Sequence record: PZ445428.1
Strand: one strand, 5' to 3'
Length of the DNA stretch: 64,000 nt
DNA from: a phage
Shown: positions 3,070-44,182 of the stretch, in pieces
Layout: each line of letters begins with the position of its first letter
Position numbering within the stretch: position 1 is the first letter of the stretch
Notes under the pieces: generated by a model
What the model was told of the DNA's origin: nothing
Seen by the model: only the letters and a program-made list of their open reading frames with translations
Database searches by the model: none
Translations under genes and position numbers: made by a program

Positions 3070-3327
3070 TATATTCTCCTTCTCTAACTAAGACTACTAT
3101 TATAGCTCATTTGAAGGCGTATGTCAATATAAATTTTCTAAAGAGCTAAGTAACTTGATCTGGCTCAATTTTTGGAAAATTGTTGTTGACACCTTACCCT
3201 ATTTTATACTATAATCCCGCGCCCATGTACGCGATATAAAATGATTATCTAGTATCATACATCTCCCTCTATAAGCAAGCAAATTTTTTATTTAACTGCA
3301 ATGTCATAGGCTTATTTAAAATTGTAG

Positions 3328-6979: not shown

Positions 6980-7498
6980 GTGAAACCTCAATTAACAAAA
7001 GAATTTCTAGAGAAATACCTAGAACTCAGAGAAGATACACTCTATTGGAAGCCAAGAGAAACTAACAAGGGTGGATTTAACACTAGATTTGCTGGAAAAC
7101 CTGTAGGAGCCGTCAATGGAAATGGCTACCTATGCTTCCGACTTAATGTGGAAGGTTATAGATGGGAGTTAAGAAATCATGTAGTAATCTTCTGTCTCTA
7201 TTATGGATATTACCCTACTAAGACAGTAGATCATAAAGATACAAATAAACTTAATAACCACCCTTTAAGTCTAAGGGAATCAACCGATGCTGGTAACGCC
7301 CAAAATAGAGGAGCTGGTAAAAACAATACTCATGGGCATAAAAACCTAGAGCCTCTTAGTTCAGGAAACTGGAGGGTTAGGATAACACACAACGGTACTG
7401 TTTATAGATCTTCCGCAATGCCTTTAGAAAAAGCTCTAGAACATAGAGATATTAAACTTAAAGAATTTCATGGTGAATACGCTAATAATGGAGAATAA
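6980..7498 (+). CDS. HNH homing endonuclease (free-standing, between nrdA and nrdB)
   Basis: GTG start after AAGGAG RBS; HNH core VDHKDTNKLNNHPLSLRE; stop 3 nt before nrdB ATG. Confidence 0.7.
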   Translation: MKPQLTKEFLEKYLELREDTLYWKPRETNKGGFNTRFAGKPVGAVNGNGYLCFRLNVEGYRWELRNHVVIFCLYYGYYPTKTVDHKDTNKLNNHPLSLRESTDAGNAQNRGAGKNNTHGHKNLEPLSSGNWRVRITHNGTVYRSSAMPLEKALEHRDIKLKEFHGEYANNGE

Positions 7499-25086: not shown

Positions 25087-25116
25087 CTCCTCCAAGCAGA
25101 AATTTTAAAAATGTAC

Positions 25117-25146
25117 TTGCTTTTTACTTAAGATTTCTGCTATAAT
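25117..25146 (+). promoter_or_regulatory. early promoter cassette (-35 TTGCTT, -10 TATAAT)
   Basis: Hexamers with 18-bp spacer. Confidence 0.55.
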
Positions 25147-25175
25147 AGTTATATAAATTGATGAGAGGAATCAGA

Positions 25176-25990: not shown

Positions 25991-26065
25991 GCACCTTTAG
26001 CTGAGATGGATTAGCGCTTGCCTGAAGAGCTTGAGAGGTTGGATCGTTACCAACGGGGTGCACCA
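25991..26065 (+). tRNA. tRNA candidate (anticodon GAA, Phe?)
   Basis: Perfect acceptor GCACCTT/GGGGTGC and D-arm; anticodon stem imperfect, loop CTGAAGA; atypical T-loop ATCGTTA; CCA. Confidence 0.45.
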
Positions 26066-26082: not shown

Positions 26083-26355
26083 ATGCATCCTGAAAACTTC
26101 TTTATATACTGTACTAGTCCTTTGCTTAAACGCCGGATTAATAAAGTATATCACTACAGAGCTAGTCAACAGCCTTATATTTATGATTCTAGTGGAGATC
26201 ACATTCCACTTGAGCAACTAGGGACTGATTATATGGTTTTGAAGCACTTTAATGAGGCAAAGATCTCAAGCGTTCATAACCGACAAAACTCTAAAACGTG
26301 GTGGTATAAGAAGCGTAAGAAAGGCATCAAATTTCTGAAAAATGTAGTTGCTTAA
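26083..26355 (+). CDS. hypothetical basic protein
   Basis: ORF track 26068..26355; start moved to ATG about 6 nt after AAGGAG. Confidence 0.45.
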   Translation: MHPENFFIYCTSPLLKRRINKVYHYRASQQPYIYDSSGDHIPLEQLGTDYMVLKHFNEAKISSVHNRQNSKTWWYKKRKKGIKFLKNVVA

Positions 26356-26376
26356 ATCCTTAAAGTTCTGTATAAT
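26348..26376 (+). promoter_or_regulatory. early promoter cassette (-35 TTGCTT, -10 TATAAT)
   Basis: Hexamers with 17-bp spacer; -35 overlaps upstream stop codon. Confidence 0.55.
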
Positions 26377-26404
26377 TATTACATAAATTGAACTGGAGAA
26401 CTAG

Positions 26405-27237: not shown

Positions 27238-27487
27238 AATTTCAGTGCAGAACACGGAGCTAGCAATTCGGAAGTGCTGACGCGCGATAAGCTGCCTATG
27301 TACTTGCAAAGCGGACGTGTCCTAGACTCGGACTCTTGCACTGAAACCAATTAAACATTCTAGCGTGGTGGAGAGGGGACACCAGCTTGCCGAGGGTAGA
27401 AGCTCGTTCGATTCGAGTGAAAGAATGGTTCTCGTAAATCCGCACAAGTGATAGTAGGTTCAAGTCCTGCCTAGATTGACTTATTAT

Positions 27488-27561: not shown

Positions 27562-27808
27562 AATTTAGGTTTATGCTTCCTAGAGAACGTACTCCTAAAT
27601 AAACAAGGCGATGAGTTTCCGGCCGGTTCTAGTCGCTGAAAATCCTCCCGACCAGGTAGGTGTAGGTAAACGAAAGTTTACTTATTAAGTAAGTCCGACA
27701 CATCGGCGGGTGTGTTCTAGTATTTAAAGAAGGTCTCGCAAACTTTCTCGCTAGCATGAGTTCATAGCTCGGTGACTTACCTAATAAGTAAATTTATTAA
27801 AAATGTAA

Positions 27809-27837
27809 TTGCTATTTAGCTTAATTCTCTGTATAAT
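27809..27837 (+). promoter_or_regulatory. early promoter cassette (-35 TTGCTA, -10 TATAAT)
   Basis: Hexamers with 17-bp spacer. Confidence 0.6.
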
Positions 27838-27869
27838 ATATTTTATAAAGTGATGAGAAGGAAAGCAAA

Positions 27870-28536: not shown

Positions 28537-28896
28537 ATGCAATTATCATCTAAAGTTCAAGGTTTCTTCACACATGCAACAGCAGAATTTGCTATTAGCA
28601 AGGGTTGGGACTTTGAGCAAGAACTTTCTGAGTTCTATAAAGATATAGATATGAATACACCATACATGGCCTTAGCTTCTGGACAAGAGTTCTCAGAAGG
28701 TGATCTTTTCAAGGCAAGTCAAGGCGAGGTAACGCCTGGTTTTGCCGCTTTTTGGAGTGGCTTCACAATTAAAGAAGAAGCTCCAGATGATGATGTATTT
28801 ATGCAAAGCATGCACTCTGGGAGTTCTGATATGTTATTCGTTAAAGATGTACGACATATCCAAGAAGTGGTAAAAACGTATTTGCAAAATGCTTAA
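28537..28896 (+). CDS. hypothetical protein (119 aa)
   Basis: ORF track 28531..28896; start moved to ATG after TAAGGAA. Confidence 0.55.
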   Translation: MQLSSKVQGFFTHATAEFAISKGWDFEQELSEFYKDIDMNTPYMALASGQEFSEGDLFKASQGEVTPGFAAFWSGFTIKEEAPDDDVFMQSMHSGSSDMLFVKDVRHIQEVVKTYLQNA

Positions 28897-28910
28897 TTTC
28901 TTGTTATAAT
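28882..28910 (+). promoter_or_regulatory. early promoter cassette (-35 TTGCAA, -10 TATAAT) driving ORF-free leader plus tRNAs
   Basis: Hexamers with 17-bp spacer; -35 overlaps upstream stop. Confidence 0.55.
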
Positions 28911-29150
28911 ATTTATATAAATTGATGGGGAGAAATCCTCATCAAAGTTCACTAAGGTATTAGCTCGACCTAGGACTGGCTGCCACCAAGCACGATCCCT
29001 ACGACTCGGGAGAAGTTCTAGATTAGTCCACTAGATTCAGCGGCAACTGAATAGTGTATCGGGTTTGTGAAGAGCGGGTATCCAAGCCTGGCTAATGGCA
29101 CTGGGTATTACGCACACCGAGCTAATAGCCTTAGTAAACTTGAAGAATTT

Positions 29151-29225
29151 GGGCGAATAGTGTCAGCGGGAGCACACCAGACTTGCAATCTGGTAGGGAG
29201 GGTTCGAGTCCCTCTTTGTCCACCA
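29151..29225 (+). tRNA. tRNA-Ala (anticodon TGC)
   Basis: Acceptor GGGCGAA/TTTGTCC, anticodon stem CCAGA/TCTGG loop CTTGCAA, T-arm GAGGG-TTCGAGT-CCCTC, CCA. Confidence 0.65.
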
Positions 29226-29231
29226 AATTTT

Positions 29232-29307
29232 GGGGTCATAGGTTATTTGGTTAAACTTACTGCCTTGCAAGCAGTAGAACTCAGTTCAATTCTGAGTGAC
29301 TCCACCA
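29232..29307 (+). tRNA. tRNA with TGC anticodon (second Ala-type)
   Basis: Acceptor GGGGTCA/TGACTCC, anticodon stem ACTGC/GCAGT loop CTTGCAA, T-arm CTCAG-TTCAATT-CTGAG, CCA. Confidence 0.6.
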
Positions 29308-29326
29308 AACAAATTAAGGAAATAAT

Positions 29327-29545
29327 ATGGTATTCTTAGCAGCCTCTGTAGTTCTTGCATCTTTAGCGTTAGCTATCTATTTTAGAACTGCTAAAGATTT
29401 ATCTAAAGAAAAGAAAACTTTCTTTACTGATTACTCTTGGGGTGCTCCATACGCTATCAATTCTATCAGTCTAGAAGCTATGTTGATAATGGTATTCAGT
29501 GGTATAGGTTCTATCGTTGCTGGATTACTTTTTATTTCTAACTAA
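29327..29545 (+). CDS. small membrane protein (72 aa)
   Basis: ORF track; two hydrophobic helices. Confidence 0.45.
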   Translation: MVFLAASVVLASLALAIYFRTAKDLSKEKKTFFTDYSWGAPYAINSISLEAMLIMVFSGIGSIVAGLLFISN

Positions 29546-29820: not shown

Positions 29821-29913
29821 GGAAGAGCAAATCGACTTGGTGACGAAAACCGCTTGGAAAGTGGCTGACTTGTGAAAGCAGGCTTGAGAGTTCGAATCTC
29901 TCTTCTTCCGCCA
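29821..29913 (+). tRNA. tRNA-Ser (anticodon GGA)
   Basis: Acceptor GGAAGAG/TTCTTCC, 3-bp D-stem, anticodon loop TTGGAAA, long variable arm, T-arm GAGAG-TTCGAAT-CTCTC, CCA. Confidence 0.65.
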
Positions 29914-29920
29914 AACAATT

Positions 29921-30010
29921 GGAAGTACGGGCGTAGTGGTATGCAACTAGTCTTGAAAACTAGCCCGCTGTAGCGATATGGTGATGGTTCGACTCCATGT
30001 GCTTCCGCCA
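29921..30010 (+). tRNA. tRNA-Ser (anticodon TGA)
   Basis: Acceptor GGAAGTA/TGCTTCC, anticodon stem CTAGT/ACTAG loop CTTGAAA, long variable arm, T-loop TTCGACT, CCA. Confidence 0.7.
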
Positions 30011-30016
30011 AATCTT

Positions 30017-30145
30017 GGAATATGCCGGAATTGGTAGACGGGACTGCCGAATAGGTTTACTAGGAACATCCACTCCTAGAAATATACCTTAAAAGCGGTT
30101 GAGTTAAATGGTCTAACTCGTGAAGGTTCAAGTCCTTCTATTCCT
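30017..30145 (+). tRNA. oversized tRNA-Leu(TAA)-like gene (~129 nt) with ~40-nt insertion in anticodon arm; possible intron-containing or disrupted tRNA
   Basis: Acceptor GGAATA/TATTCC, Leu-type D-arm CCG-GAATTGGTAGA-CGG, T-arm GAAGG-TTCAAGT-CCTTC, variable hairpin GAGTTA...TAACTC, anticodon stem ACTGC/GCGGT enclosing CTTAAAA loop plus inserted hairpin CTAGGA...TCCTAG; no CCA. Confidence 0.35.
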
Positions 30146-30395
30146 TGATACATCAATGGCTCAAAGAGTAACGGTGCACCTTTCTAGAGAATTTCCTGGG
30201 CGAGAATCCAGGTGTAATCAACTAGTCGTTAGTGTGATGAGTTTCGGAGAGCCGCCACAATTGAAGATCATTGTCTGTTTGAGTCTACCATTTAGGGTCG
30301 TTACTTGTAGCGCCTATCTGCTAGGTCTAATCACTAGGTAAAGGCATGCAAGCTTCTAGTGTAGAGAGTTCGCTACTCCTCGATGGTTTTCAATT

Positions 30396-31502: not shown

Positions 31503-31517
31503 AAATTTAAAAATTCA

Positions 31518-31546
31518 TTTGCCTTCTCTCTTATTTCTTGTTATAA
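31518..31546 (+). promoter_or_regulatory. early promoter cassette (-35 TTGCCT, -10 TATAAT)
   Basis: Hexamers with 17-bp spacer. Confidence 0.55.
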
Positions 31547-31577
31547 TATTTATATAAATTAATGAGAGGGAAACCAA

Positions 31578-31871
31578 ATGAAACGTTATCTTTCTGTCGT
31601 GTTCCAAACTGGTGGTCAGCGTTATACCTACGAATTTCCAGAGTCTTGGAAAATCAAAGAAGGTGATCAGGTTGTTGTACTGACACCGCGTGAAGGCTTC
31701 AAAGTGGTTACGGTTAAACAAGTATTTCCTAAAGATCACGAACCATCTAAATCTATTAATTATAAGATGATTCATGGTCTGGTACGAAAAGTACCACGGA
31801 CGGAAGTTGAAGTAGATAAAGATGGTGAAGCTAAATACCAGTATACTTCTTACCTAGACGAGATGCGATAA
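31578..31871 (+). CDS. hypothetical protein (97 aa)
   Basis: ORF track; cassette RBS GAGAGGGAA. Confidence 0.55.
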   Translation: MKRYLSVVFQTGGQRYTYEFPESWKIKEGDQVVVLTPREGFKVVTVKQVFPKDHEPSKSINYKMIHGLVRKVPRTEVEVDKDGEAKYQYTSYLDEMR

Positions 31872-32095
31872 TGAGAATTACCTTTACTGAGAAGATAATA
31901 TGTAATGGGATTATGATCATTACAGCGTGGGAAGGTAAACAATGGTGCAGTATAACGGGTCTTAAAGCAGAAGATCAAACACCAGAAAACATTCTCAAAA
32001 TAAAACAAAACATGGCAAAACATGCTAAACGTCCTGGTGCTCCTAGGAATGGCATACGTTTTGCAGCAAAATGCTCCGATAGTTCAAACGGTTAG
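31871..32095 (+). CDS. hypothetical protein (74 aa)
   Basis: ORF track; 3' end overlaps tRNA-Ile by about 20 nt, so the call is uncertain. Confidence 0.35.
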   Translation: MRITFTEKIICNGIMIITAWEGKQWCSITGLKAEDQTPENILKIKQNMAKHAKRPGAPRNGIRFAAKCSDSSNG

Positions 32096-41713: not shown

Positions 41714-41717
41714 TTAG

Positions 41718-41746
41718 TTGCTAAACGCTAAAATTTTTGATATAAT
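41718..41746 (+). promoter_or_regulatory. early promoter cassette (-35 TTGCTA, -10 TATAAT)
   Basis: Hexamers with 17-bp spacer. Confidence 0.6.
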
Positions 41747-41780
41747 ATACATATAAATTGATGAGAGGAGTATCAAATAA

Positions 41781-44021: not shown

Positions 44022-44123
44022 TTTTGATGGAATGGCTCGTGAAATATTTATTGCGATAGCAATAGTAGTTCTTATTTCTTTCTTCACTGGCCTAGGAATA
44101 GGCCTTTTATTTTAAAACTTCAG

Positions 44124-44152
44124 TTGCTAAAATGCTTTAATTTCTGTATAAT
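44124..44152 (+). promoter_or_regulatory. early promoter cassette (-35 TTGCTA, -10 TATAAT)
   Basis: Hexamers with 17-bp spacer. Confidence 0.6.
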
Positions 44153-44182
44153 TACTTTATAAATTGATGAGAAGGAATCAAA

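What the first reader, a model, noticed from the sequence alone, without database searches (positions are those of the whole stretch)
28882..29150. Second promoter-driven ORF-free leader (about 240 nt) upstream of tRNA-Ala
An early promoter cassette at 28882-28910 is followed by about 240 nt with no ORF and no tRNA before tRNA-Ala at 29151. Either a long structured 5' leader that must be processed, or a small RNA gene.
Basis: seen in the sequence. Interest (0 to 1): 0.4.

Follow-up and report, generated by a model that had tools for sequence, protein, structure and literature searches.

The report
Phage T5 stable RNA "RNA2H" gene
The ORF-free stretch is an unannotated copy of a small, stable, intricately folded RNA gene (RNA2H) already annotated in phage T5; it has its own promoter, is made together with the tRNAs that follow it, and its function is still unknown.

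Summary
A strong sigma-70 promoter (TTGCAA-17-TGnTATAAT, 28882-28910) is followed by 240 nt with no tRNA and no conserved ORF before tRNA-Ala at 29151.

The window is Escherichia phage TrudiGerster (Bas27), a T5-like phage. The stretch is unannotated there. It is orthologous to T5 misc_RNA rna2H ('stable RNA with unknown functions', 172 nt, behind promoter P13b). The equivalent of the T5-annotated RNA is window 28958-29130.

It matches no Rfam family. I derived a fold supported by covariation:
- a long closing stem P1;
- a cloverleaf-like four-way junction (P2-P5);
- the loops of P4 and P5 both pair with an upstream strand, giving two pseudoknots;
- a 3' hairpin P7 that occurs as two alleles.

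On 32 sequences, 96% of cells pair, against 33-42% in slid controls. 32 of 61 pairs change on both sides.

A model built from these sequences also finds homologues in Pectobacterium, Proteus and Vibrio T5-like phages. The gene following the RNA varies: tRNA-Ala, tRNA-Leu, a small ORF or another promoter. It is therefore a gene, not a tRNA-Ala leader.

A natural deletion in phage FFH1 indicates it is dispensable. Its function is unknown; I favour a trans-acting, protein-binding or decoy RNA, with low confidence.

The RNA is already known as an entity. The fold and its spread across the phage family are modestly new.

The parts
28882..28910 (+). Early sigma-70 promoter, orthologue of T5 P13b: -35 TTGCAA, 17-nt spacer, extended -10 TGnTATAAT. 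Inferred transcription start about 28917.
   Evidence: Consensus scan 10/12 with TG. 92% identity to the annotated T5 P13b over 28872-28936. T5 annotation.
28923..28944 (+). 5' leader hairpin (UGAUGGGGA-GAAA-UCCUCAUCA). It lies outside the RNA as annotated in T5. The stem base is conserved and the interior is variable.
   Evidence: MFE fold. The same hairpin with other stem sequences occurs in KKP_3711, L146 and My1. S133 has about 100 nt inserted inside it. It is absent in Klebsiella phages and Eos.
28947..28967 (+). P1 5' strand: P1a 28947-28949, P1b 28952-28957, P1c 28958-28967. The T5-annotated 5' end maps to 28958, between P1b and P1c.
   Evidence: 99.8% of cells paired and 5 pairs with changes on both sides. 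Entirely different P1c sequences in My1, Proteus and Vibrio phages still pair. T5 ends.
28958..29130 (+). Predicted mature RNA2H orthologue (173 nt): a 10-bp terminal helix with a 3' overhang GCC.
   Evidence: Mapped from the T5 feature rna2H (L002 3041-3212). CM R1 scores 217.7 bits over 28946-29140.
28973..28984 (+). Single strand that pairs with two hairpin loops: PK1a GGACU (28973-28977), invariant GG(C), PK2a UGCC (28981-28984).
   Evidence: PK1 100% paired with 4/5 pairs covarying; PK2 99.2% paired with 3/4 covarying. Variants: GAGCC/GGCUC, GAGUC/GACUC, GAACC/GGUUC, AGAAC/GUUCU; ACCA/UGGU, AAUCA/UGAUU, UUGC/GCAA, GCCAA/UUGGC.
28990..29057 (+). Cloverleaf-like four-way junction. P2 GCAC/GUGU (28990-28993 / 29054-29057) closes hairpins P3 (28996-29011, variable length), P4 (29017-29035, loop holds PK1b AGUCC 29025-29029) and P5 (29036-29051, loop holds PK2b GGCA 29042-29045).
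   Evidence: P3, P4 and P5 covary. P2 is invariant in Markadamsvirinae, but it is AUGU/GCAU in Proteus phage PL1 and GCAUC/GGUGU in the Vibrio phage.
29058..29073 (+). Conserved joining strand AUCGGGUUU, then the P6 5' strand GUG (29067-29069), then AAGA.
   Evidence: Invariant columns G116, U119-G122, G124, A125. P6 pairs with 29115-29117 (CAC). Its middle pair is U-A, C-G or A-U in different phages, and it is 100% paired.
29074..29113 (+). P7, the long 3' hairpin, here allele A with the 8-nt loop UGGCUAAU (29089-29096), which is the same in every allele-A sequence examined. T5, BF23, bombadil and Eos carry a different allele B.
   Evidence: 6 of 9 stem pairs covary. The window and T5 align at 94.7% only over RNA positions 1-113. 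Alleles are visible.
29115..29139 (+). P6 3' strand (29115-29117), P1c 3' strand (29118-29127), bulged G 29128, P1b 3' strand (29129-29134), P1a (29137-29139). The T5-annotated 3' end maps to 29130 (..AAUAGCC).
   Evidence: The bulged G after P1c is kept in My1, Proteus and Vibrio homologues.
29131..29150 (+). 20-nt trailer and spacer between RNA2H and tRNA-Ala.
   Evidence: Sequence.
29151..29307 (+). Two tRNA-Ala(UGC) genes (29151-29225, 29232-29307), presumably co-transcribed from the same promoter.
   Evidence: ARAGORN, Rfam, record annotation. No terminator-like site lies between the promoter and the tRNAs.

Best explanation
Window 28882-29150 is a promoter plus the gene for the TrudiGerster orthologue of phage T5 'RNA2H'. 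RNA2H is a stable non-coding RNA of about 173 nt.

Inferred production: host RNA polymerase starts at the P13b-type early promoter at about 28917 and transcribes a short leader hairpin, RNA2H and the downstream tRNA-Ala genes as one precursor.

Shown by covariation: RNA2H folds compactly. A long stem P1 closes the molecule. Inside it, a 12-nt strand pairs with the loops of two neighbouring hairpins (P4 and P5) of a cloverleaf-like four-way junction, forming two pseudoknots. A second arm (P6-P7) lies next to the 3' strand of P1.

Inferred from the T5 annotation: the ends annotated in T5 lie opposite each other inside P1. They leave a 10-bp terminal helix with a 3' G-C-C overhang. The RNA is therefore cut out of the precursor within P1, either tRNA-style (RNase P plus 3' trimming) or by RNase III. 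This also frees the tRNA precursor.

Inferred, with low confidence: the excised RNA then acts in trans as a folded particle. It is neither a messenger nor a regulator of the adjacent tRNA. My preferred reading is that it binds a host or phage protein of the tRNA or RNA-processing world, for example as a decoy against a host defence or nuclease. I put about 0.3 on that sub-claim.
For: Identity:
- The window is 100% identical to MZ501108.
- 28918-29150 is 85% identical to T5 31789-32019, which is annotated rna2H/T5s04 'stable RNA with unknown functions' behind promoter P13b. BF23 and DT57C carry the same annotation.

Conservation: 507 phage records match and 412 of them cover at least 80% of the query.

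Fold:
- 96.1% of cells are paired, against 33-42% for slid controls.
- 32 of 61 pairs change on both sides, against 2-9 for slid controls. 0 of 500 shuffles reach the observed value.
- Both pseudoknots are 99-100% paired and covary.
- All helices were re-verified by hand in eight clades, with different sequences at fixed positions.

Strand: G-U pairs occur only when the + strand is read.

Gene rather than leader:
- CM R1 finds a full-length homologue in Pectobacterium phage My1 (45.7 bits), followed by tRNA-Leu.
- Proteus phage PL1 (43.6 bits), followed by an ORF.
- Vibrio phage 70E37.1 (33.2 bits), where it sits between two promoter cassettes with a U-tract after P1.
- In Klebsiella phages and Eos the -10 box sits about 7 nt before P1.

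Ends: the T5 RNA is UAUUAGCUCG...CGAGCUAAUAGCC. The other T5 stable RNAs likewise have a terminal stem plus a 2-4-nt 3' overhang: GCCA, ACCA, ACA, AU.

Copy number: one per genome.
Against: - No expression or end-mapping data were available to me. The word 'stable RNA' and the ends come from a GenBank annotation whose experimental basis I could not read (literature searches found nothing).
- Function is not shown by anything here.
- The RNA is dispensable. FFH1 has lost most of it through a microhomology deletion. It lies in the T5 'del-1' tRNA region, which tolerates large deletions (PMC12483538).
- P2 is invariant within Markadamsvirinae. Its support rests on three distant sequences (My1, where it is unchanged, and Proteus and Vibrio, where it changes).
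- An alternative pairing of GUGU with the 3' RCRC segment is possible in most Markadamsvirinae members.
- PK2 could not be placed in the Vibrio homologue.
- RNase III and RNase P cannot be told apart from sequence.
Confidence: 0.85

Rival explanations
1. It is only a processing or stabilising cassette: a structured 5' leader whose job is to protect the primary transcript and supply a cleavage site so that the downstream tRNAs mature correctly. The excised piece would be a by-product.
For: It is co-transcribed with tRNA-Ala here, and no terminator-like site lies between them. The long P1 stem brackets the RNA the way processing stems bracket rRNAs. The annotated ends lie in P1.
Against: - A by-product does not need two covarying pseudoknots, invariant junction nucleotides and fixed helix spacing kept across four subfamily-level lineages.
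- The downstream partner is not conserved: tRNA-Ala, tRNA-Leu, an ORF or a promoter.
- FFH1 keeps the promoter and tRNA-Ala without the RNA.
Confidence: 0.08
2. It is a cis-acting sensor such as a riboswitch, attenuator or antitermination RNA that controls read-through into the tRNA genes.
For: It is promoter-proximal, highly structured, and has invariant junction nucleotides.
Against: - There is no terminator or other expression platform after it in the window.
- It matches no riboswitch or leader family in Rfam at E<=10.
- It is annotated as a stable, excised RNA in T5.
- The downstream genes vary.
- In the Vibrio phage it stands alone between promoters.
Confidence: 0.04
3. It is a ribozyme, for example one that cleaves itself or a tRNA precursor.
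For: It has a compact double-pseudoknot fold of about 170 nt with invariant unpaired nucleotides. It sits in tRNA arrays.
Against: It matches no known ribozyme family, including RNase P, at E<=10. Its ends are explained by ordinary host RNases. Nothing here points to catalysis.
Confidence: 0.04
4. It encodes a small protein, or it is a DNA-level element such as a homing-endonuclease target, nick site or origin.
For: Some GenBank records call short 'hypothetical proteins' under it, on either strand.
Against: - All six frames have stops in the window and T5 versions, and no frame is shared.
- The length differences in P3 are hairpin extensions, not conserved codons.
- The changes are compensatory, and G-U pairs are confined to one strand. 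That pattern is the signature of RNA, not of protein or DNA.
Confidence: 0.01

Closest known systems
Phage T5 / BF23 / DT57C stable RNA 'RNA2H' (gene rna2H, T5s04; GenBank NC_005859, NC_042564, KM979354)
   Same: It is orthologous. It has the same promoter (P13b) and the same position between tRNA-Val and tRNA-Ala. Identity is 94.7% over RNA positions 1-113, and the CM match is full-length.
   Different: The 3' hairpin P7 is a different allele: A in the window, B in T5. The window phage has two tRNA-Ala genes after it. The gene is not annotated in the TrudiGerster record.
Other small stable RNAs of phage tRNA clusters: T5 RNA1, RNA2, RNA3, RNAI, RNAIII, RNAIV; T4 species 1 and 2 RNAs (rnaC, rnaD)
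   Same: They are small stable RNAs of unknown function embedded in phage tRNA arrays. Each has a terminal stem with a short 3' overhang, as if matured like tRNAs.
   Different: They are not homologous. CM R1 finds nothing in the rest of the T5 tRNA region or in the T4 tRNA cluster. RNA1 and RNA2 carry recognisable T-arms and RNA2H does not. RNA2H is the only one for which a double-pseudoknot fold was worked out here; for the others I ran only MFE folds.
GOLLD and ROOL RNAs (Rfam RF02032 for GOLLD)
   Same: They are ornate, pseudoknotted, abundant RNAs of unknown function, encoded by phages and often near tRNA islands (PMC12286853). A Vibrio T5-like phage carries both GOLLD and an RNA2H-like gene in one tRNA array.
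   Different: RNA2H is 3-5 times smaller. It gives no match to the GOLLD or ROOL models. No evidence of multimer or cage formation was obtained.
tRNA, tRNA-like and tmRNA-type architectures
   Same: It has a terminal helix with a 3' G-C-C overhang, a helical arm next to the 3' strand, and a four-way junction with arms of 4, 5 and 5 bp like the D, anticodon and T arms.
   Different: It is not detected as tRNA or tmRNA. It has no T-loop or anticodon-loop signature. The two 'arm' loops are tied up in pseudoknots, and there is no encoded CCA.

Membership tests
T5 RNA2H (rna2H) stable RNA | Sequence homology to the annotated T5/BF23 rna2H | tested here: met
   85% identity over 233 nt, and 94.7% over RNA positions 1-113. 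CM built on the family scores 217.7 bits.
T5 RNA2H (rna2H) stable RNA | Same genomic setting: behind the early promoter P13b, inside the tRNA array | tested here: met
   Promoter 92% identical to P13b. Order is tRNA-Lys, tRNA-Val, (ORF), promoter, RNA, tRNA-Ala.
T5 RNA2H (rna2H) stable RNA | Accumulates as a discrete stable RNA in infected cells | not testable with these tools
   Rests on the GenBank annotation only. No readable paper was found.
tRNA / tmRNA | Detected by ARAGORN or the Rfam tRNA and tmRNA models (cloverleaf with T-loop and anticodon loop) | tested here: not met
   No call in 28911-29150. No tRNA-clan hit there at E<=10.
Any curated RNA family (riboswitches, ribozymes, RNase P, 6S, SRP, Y RNA, GOLLD, ROOL and the rest of Rfam 15) | Covariance-model match | tested here: not met
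   No hit at gathering score. No hit at E<=10 for the window, L6jm, PYC03, Klebsiella and Eos versions.
T4 species 1/2 RNAs (rnaC, rnaD) | Homology | tested here: not met
   R1 with filters off gives nothing above 10.3 bits in the T4 tRNA cluster, and those fragments are not at rnaC or rnaD.
RNase III-processed stem (rRNA-operon or T7-early type) | About 20-bp duplex cut on both strands with a 2-bp stagger | tested here: inconclusive
   P1 has 19 bp, plus a bulge and an internal loop. The T5-annotated ends are staggered by 2 bp plus the bulged G. The same ends also fit RNase P plus 3' trimming. No cleavage data.
Protein-coding small ORF | Open frame conserved among relatives | tested here: not met
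   At least 2 stops in all six frames of the window and T5 versions, and no shared frame.

The most novel reading that the evidence does not exclude
RNA2H is the founding member of an undescribed class of compact, double-pseudoknotted, cloverleaf-cored RNAs that is ancestral to the T5-like phage family (Demerecviridae). It would work as a tRNA-shaped decoy or RNP component that neutralises a host tRNA-directed defence or RNA-processing enzyme. Its exchangeable P7 hairpin (alleles A and B) would act as the specificity module in an arms race.
Probability: 0.2. Interest if true: 0.65.

Novelty: already known. Interest (0 to 1): 0.33.

Why it matters
T5's small stable RNAs are annotated in GenBank without a function, and I could find no paper that assigns one.

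This work shows that one of them has a fold as elaborate as a riboswitch or small ribozyme. The RNA has its own promoter. It is kept in T5-like phages of Escherichia, Salmonella, Klebsiella, Enterobacter, Pectobacterium, Proteus and probably Vibrio. It is missing from Rfam and from most genome annotations, where spurious 'hypothetical proteins' are sometimes called over it.

Phage tRNA arrays are now known to counter tRNA-targeting defences (PARIS and retron Eco7; PMC11464382, listed, and PMC10644984). They also house enigmatic ornate RNAs such as GOLLD and ROOL. A small, genetically tractable member in a model phage collection (BASEL Bas27, T5) would be a convenient entry point to what such RNAs do.

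For annotation, the practical gain is immediate: a covariance model can label this gene in several hundred genomes.

Tried and rejected
- Rfam at gathering score and at E<=10, on five versions of the RNA: nothing.
- Literature searches for RNA2H and for T5/BF23 stable RNAs: nothing readable. Papers citing Ksenzenko gave only the del-1 deletion context.
- First structure model. I paired GUGU (29054-29057) with ACAC (29114-29117) next to P1. I replaced it after the Proteus and bombadil sequences showed that GUGU pairs with GCAC (28990-28993), and that the 3' CAC pairs with GUG of the joining strand.
- MFE folding alone is misleading here. It pairs CUAGGACU with AGUUCUAG and misses both pseudoknots. 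For the mature RNA alone the z-score is only -1.4.
- CM re-alignment (A2) did not repair the shifted P4/P5 columns of the Klebsiella and Eos rows. I checked those helices by hand instead.
- Paralogues: none in the window or in the T5 tRNA region.
- T4 rnaC/rnaD homology: none.
- Bacterial genomes: 0 pattern hits in 185,579 species genomes. No E. coli similarity at E<=10.
- IMG/VR and metagenome pattern scans returned only T5-like contigs plus chance hits.
- blastn from My1 found only My1, so distant members needed the CM.
- Considered and dropped as not supported by covariation or by the models: the P7 loop UGGCUAAU pairing with the 5' strand of P1c; resemblance to RNase P CR-V; a 10-mer I recalled from 4.5S RNA.
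- PK2 in the Vibrio homologue could not be placed.

Full report
**What the window is.** Window 28850-29330 is 100% identical to Escherichia phage TrudiGerster (BASEL Bas27, MZ501108; Demerecviridae, Epseptimavirus), a T5-like phage. In that record the stretch between CDS bas27_0119 and tRNA-Ala carries no feature.

**The observation.**
- A sigma-70-type promoter lies at 28882-28910: TTGCAA, a 17-nt spacer, then TATAAT preceded by TGn. It scores 10/12.
- ARAGORN and Rfam place tRNA-Ala(UGC) at 29151.
- The 240 nt between them hold no tRNA or tmRNA. They match no Rfam family even at E<=10. No ORF is shared with relatives, and every frame has at least 2 stops in the window and T5 versions.
- The stretch folds far better than shuffled sequence: -82.3 against -60.1 +/- 4.4 kcal/mol, z = -5.1.

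**Identity.**
- blastn of 28918-29150 finds 507 phage records, and 412 of them cover at least 80% of the query.
- In T5 (NC_005859), BF23 and DT57C the matching DNA is annotated as misc_RNA rna2H, 'RNA2H, stable RNA with unknown functions'. It is 172 nt long, sits behind the annotated promoter P13b and is followed by tRNA-Ala.
- The window's promoter is 92% identical to P13b. T5's 75-nt promoter features follow a -55..+20 convention. That puts the start 7 nt after the -10 box, at window position about 28917.
- The T5 RNA reads UAUUAGCUCG...CGAGCUAAUAGCC. The window equivalent is 28958-29130, 173 nt.
- The finding is therefore an unannotated orthologue of a known phage RNA gene.
- I found no readable paper on RNA2H. 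'Stable RNA' and the ends rest on the GenBank annotation.

**Structure.** I collected homologues from GenBank phages, IMG/VR and metagenomes and aligned 32 of them (A1). The structure below was read from compensatory changes and then counted.
- P1 is a long closing stem in three segments (28947-28967 with 29118-29139), with a bulged G at 29128.
- After P1 comes a single strand, CCUA-GGACU-GGC-UGCC-ACCAA.
- P2 (GCAC 28990-28993 with GUGU 29054-29057) closes a four-way junction with three hairpins: P3 (28996-29011, variable length), P4 (29017-29035) and P5 (29036-29051).
- The P4 loop (AGUCC) pairs with GGACU of the upstream strand. This is PK1.
- The P5 loop (GGCA) pairs with UGCC of the same strand. 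This is PK2.
- A conserved joining strand, AUCGGGUUU, leads to P6. P6 is a 3-bp helix (GUG 29067-29069 with CAC 29115-29117) that abuts P1.
- P6 encloses the long hairpin P7 (29074-29113).

**Counts on alignment A1** (first version):
- 96.1% of 1866 cells form standard pairs, against 33-42% when partners are slid by 1-3 columns.
- 32 of 61 pairs change on both sides, against 2-9 in the slid controls.
- 0 of 500 shuffles reach the observed values.
- PK1 is 100% paired with 4 of 5 pairs covarying. PK2 is 99.2% paired with 3 of 4 covarying.
- The middle pair of P6 is C-G in 19 sequences, U-A in 11 and A-U in 1.
- G-U pairs appear only when the + strand is read, so the functional strand is +.
- MAFFT misaligns P4 and P5 in the Klebsiella and Eos rows. 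I checked these helices by hand, and every one is fully complementary.

**A correction made along the way.** My first model paired GUGU with the ACAC next to P1. The distant homologues changed this. In Proteus phage PL1 the two segments corresponding to GCAC and GUGU are AUGU and GCAU. All four pairs differ and all still pair, and there is no 3'-end partner. In bombadil the old pairing is broken while the new P6 (GAG/CUC) is intact. Within Markadamsvirinae P2 does not vary, so its support rests on few sequences. An alternative pairing remains possible there.

**Range.**
- CM R1, built from A1, finds exactly one copy in the window (217.7 bits) and one in the T5 tRNA region.
- It finds nothing in the T4 tRNA cluster with its rnaC and rnaD.
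- With filters off it finds full-length homologues outside Markadamsvirinae:
  - Pectobacterium phage My1 (Mccorquodalevirinae): 45.7 bits, E 3e-11.
  - Proteus phage vB_PMC-PL1 (Novosibvirus): 43.6 bits.
  - Vibrio phage 70E37.1: 33.2 bits, E 5e-8.
- In all of these P1c begins at position 13-14, PK1a at 28-32, PK2a (where placed) at 36-40 and P2 at 44-49. The helix sequences are otherwise unrelated. In the Vibrio RNA I could not place PK2.
- No copy was found by pattern in 185,579 bacterial species genomes, and there is no E. coli similarity. This fits strictly virulent phages.

**Gene or leader?** Several observations show an autonomous gene.
- The element that follows the RNA varies:
  - tRNA-Ala in most phages;
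  - tRNA-Leu(UAG) in My1 and in metagenome contig L146;
  - a small Cys-rich ORF in bombadil and in Enterobacter phage KKP_3711;
  - another ORF in the Proteus phage;
  - the next promoter cassette, after a U-tract, in the Vibrio phage.
- In Klebsiella phages and Eos the -10 box sits about 7 nt before P1, so the promoter serves the RNA itself.
- FFH1 has lost the interior of the RNA through a GCTCGA microhomology deletion, yet keeps the promoter and tRNA-Ala.
- The same deletion also indicates that the RNA is dispensable. So does its position in the T5 'del-1' region, which tolerates large deletions (PMC12483538).

**Maturation (inferred).**
- The T5-annotated ends lie opposite each other in P1. 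They leave a 10-bp terminal helix and a 3' overhang G-C-C, where the G is the conserved bulge.
- The other T5 stable RNAs have the same design, a terminal stem plus a 2-4-nt overhang (GCCA, ACCA, ACA, AU). This looks like tRNA-type maturation. From established knowledge, RNase P would act at the 5' end and exonucleolytic trimming, which stalls at CC, at the 3' end.
- A 2-bp-staggered RNase III cut in the 19-bp P1 fits equally well.
- Either route separates RNA2H from the tRNA precursor.
- The 5' leader hairpin (28923-28944) is outside the annotated RNA. Its stem base is conserved and its interior varies freely. S133 has about 100 nt inserted in it.

**Function (inference only).**
- These features argue for a trans-acting folded particle with a specific partner, rather than a spacer:
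  - the elaborate, deeply conserved fold;
  - the invariant unpaired nucleotides (GG at 28978-9, A-rich/GCAC at 28988-93, G..UUUG.GA at 29061-70);
  - the strong early promoter.
- P7 occurs as two alleles. Allele A has the loop UGGCUAAU, which is the same in every allele-A sequence examined. It is found in the window, other Epseptimavirus phages, Klebsiella phages and the Enterobacter phage. Allele B is found in T5, BF23, bombadil and Eos. Both alleles are spread across genera, and the breakpoints lie inside the RNA. That suggests an exchangeable specificity module.
- The architecture loosely recalls tRNA and tmRNA: a terminal helix with a GCC overhang, an arm next to the 3' strand, and a four-way junction with 4/5/5-bp arms. 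It fails every tRNA and tmRNA test.
- Phage tRNA arrays counter tRNA-directed defences (PMC11464382, listed; PMC10644984). My preferred guess is therefore a decoy or RNP component aimed at a host tRNA or RNA-processing or defence protein, at about 0.3.
- I rate lower the readings as a pure processing cassette, a cis-regulator or a ribozyme. A coding or DNA-level element is excluded by the pattern of substitutions.

**Comparison with known systems.**
- It is a member of the T5 RNA2H family. Homology and genomic setting were tested and met. Accumulation as a stable RNA was not testable here.
- It is analogous but not homologous to the other T5 and T4 stable RNAs.
- In context it resembles GOLLD and ROOL, which are ornate phage RNAs near tRNA islands with unknown function (PMC12286853). 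The Vibrio T5-like phage carries a bona fide GOLLD (176 bits) in the same array as its RNA2H-like gene.
- RNA2H is much smaller than GOLLD or ROOL and matches neither model.

**Verdict.**
- The entity is already known (annotated in T5), so novelty is low.
- What is modestly new is the covariation-supported double-pseudoknot fold, the P7 allelism, the family-wide distribution, and the fact that the gene is unannotated in most genomes and absent from Rfam.
- Interest is about 0.33.

Noticed in passing
window 27356-27480; 30014-30157; 27694-27745: Unannotated homologues of other T5 stable RNAs: rna2 (88.8% identity, just before tRNA-Gly), rna1 (95.8%, just after the second tRNA-Ser, containing a sub-threshold tRNA-like piece at 30078-30146), and a partial rnaIV. 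rnaI, rnaIII and rna3 are absent.
   Followed up: partly
window 29821-29913, 29921-30010, 25991-26062: Two tRNA-Ser genes annotated in the GenBank record are missed by ARAGORN and by Rfam at gathering score. They appear only as sub-threshold tRNA-Sec hits. Conversely, Rfam finds a tRNA (tRNA-Phe in the record) at 25991-26062 that ARAGORN missed.
   Followed up: partly
window 25098-25165, 26329-26400, 27790-27864, 31503-31566, 41716-41765, 44109-44178 and others: Repeated T5-type early promoter cassettes (75-97% identical to T5 P13a or P13b) are scattered through the window.
   Followed up: no
window 29074-29113 versus L002 (T5) ~3157-3195: The 3' hairpin of RNA2H exists as two unrelated alleles (A: loop UGGCUAAU; B: loop UYGAA). 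Each occurs in several phage genera, with recombination breakpoints inside the RNA gene.
   Followed up: partly
L011 (phage FFH1) 640-660: A natural deletion of the RNA2H interior, between two copies of GCTCGA (the P1c strand and the allele-B P7 loop). It leaves the promoter, the leader hairpin and tRNA-Ala intact.
   Followed up: yes
L007 (Salmonella phage S133) ~285-400: About 100 nt of extra sequence is inserted inside the 5' leader hairpin between the promoter and RNA2H. It may be another structured element.
   Followed up: no
L008 (bombadil) 743-1060; L135 (Enterobacter phage KKP_3711) ~826-1000: A small cysteine-rich ORF with a strong RBS is inserted directly after RNA2H, in place of or before the tRNA.
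   Followed up: no
L154 (Vibrio phage 70E37.1) 12657-13077 and 7024-7215: A T5-like Vibrio phage carries a bona fide GOLLD RNA (RF02032, 176 bits) inside its tRNA array. It also has an RNA2H-like gene standing alone between two near-identical promoter cassettes. The annotated CDS p0126 (6980-7117) overlaps the RNA and is probably spurious.
   Followed up: partly
L151 (Pectobacterium phage My1) 29278-29362 (-): An unannotated tRNA-Leu(UAG) lies 2 nt downstream of the My1 RNA2H homologue.
   Followed up: yes
L153 (Proteus phage vB_PMC-PL1) 11933-12074: About 140 nt of ORF-free sequence with GC-rich hairpins lies immediately upstream of the Proteus RNA2H homologue. No obvious promoter lies directly before the RNA.
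   Followed up: no
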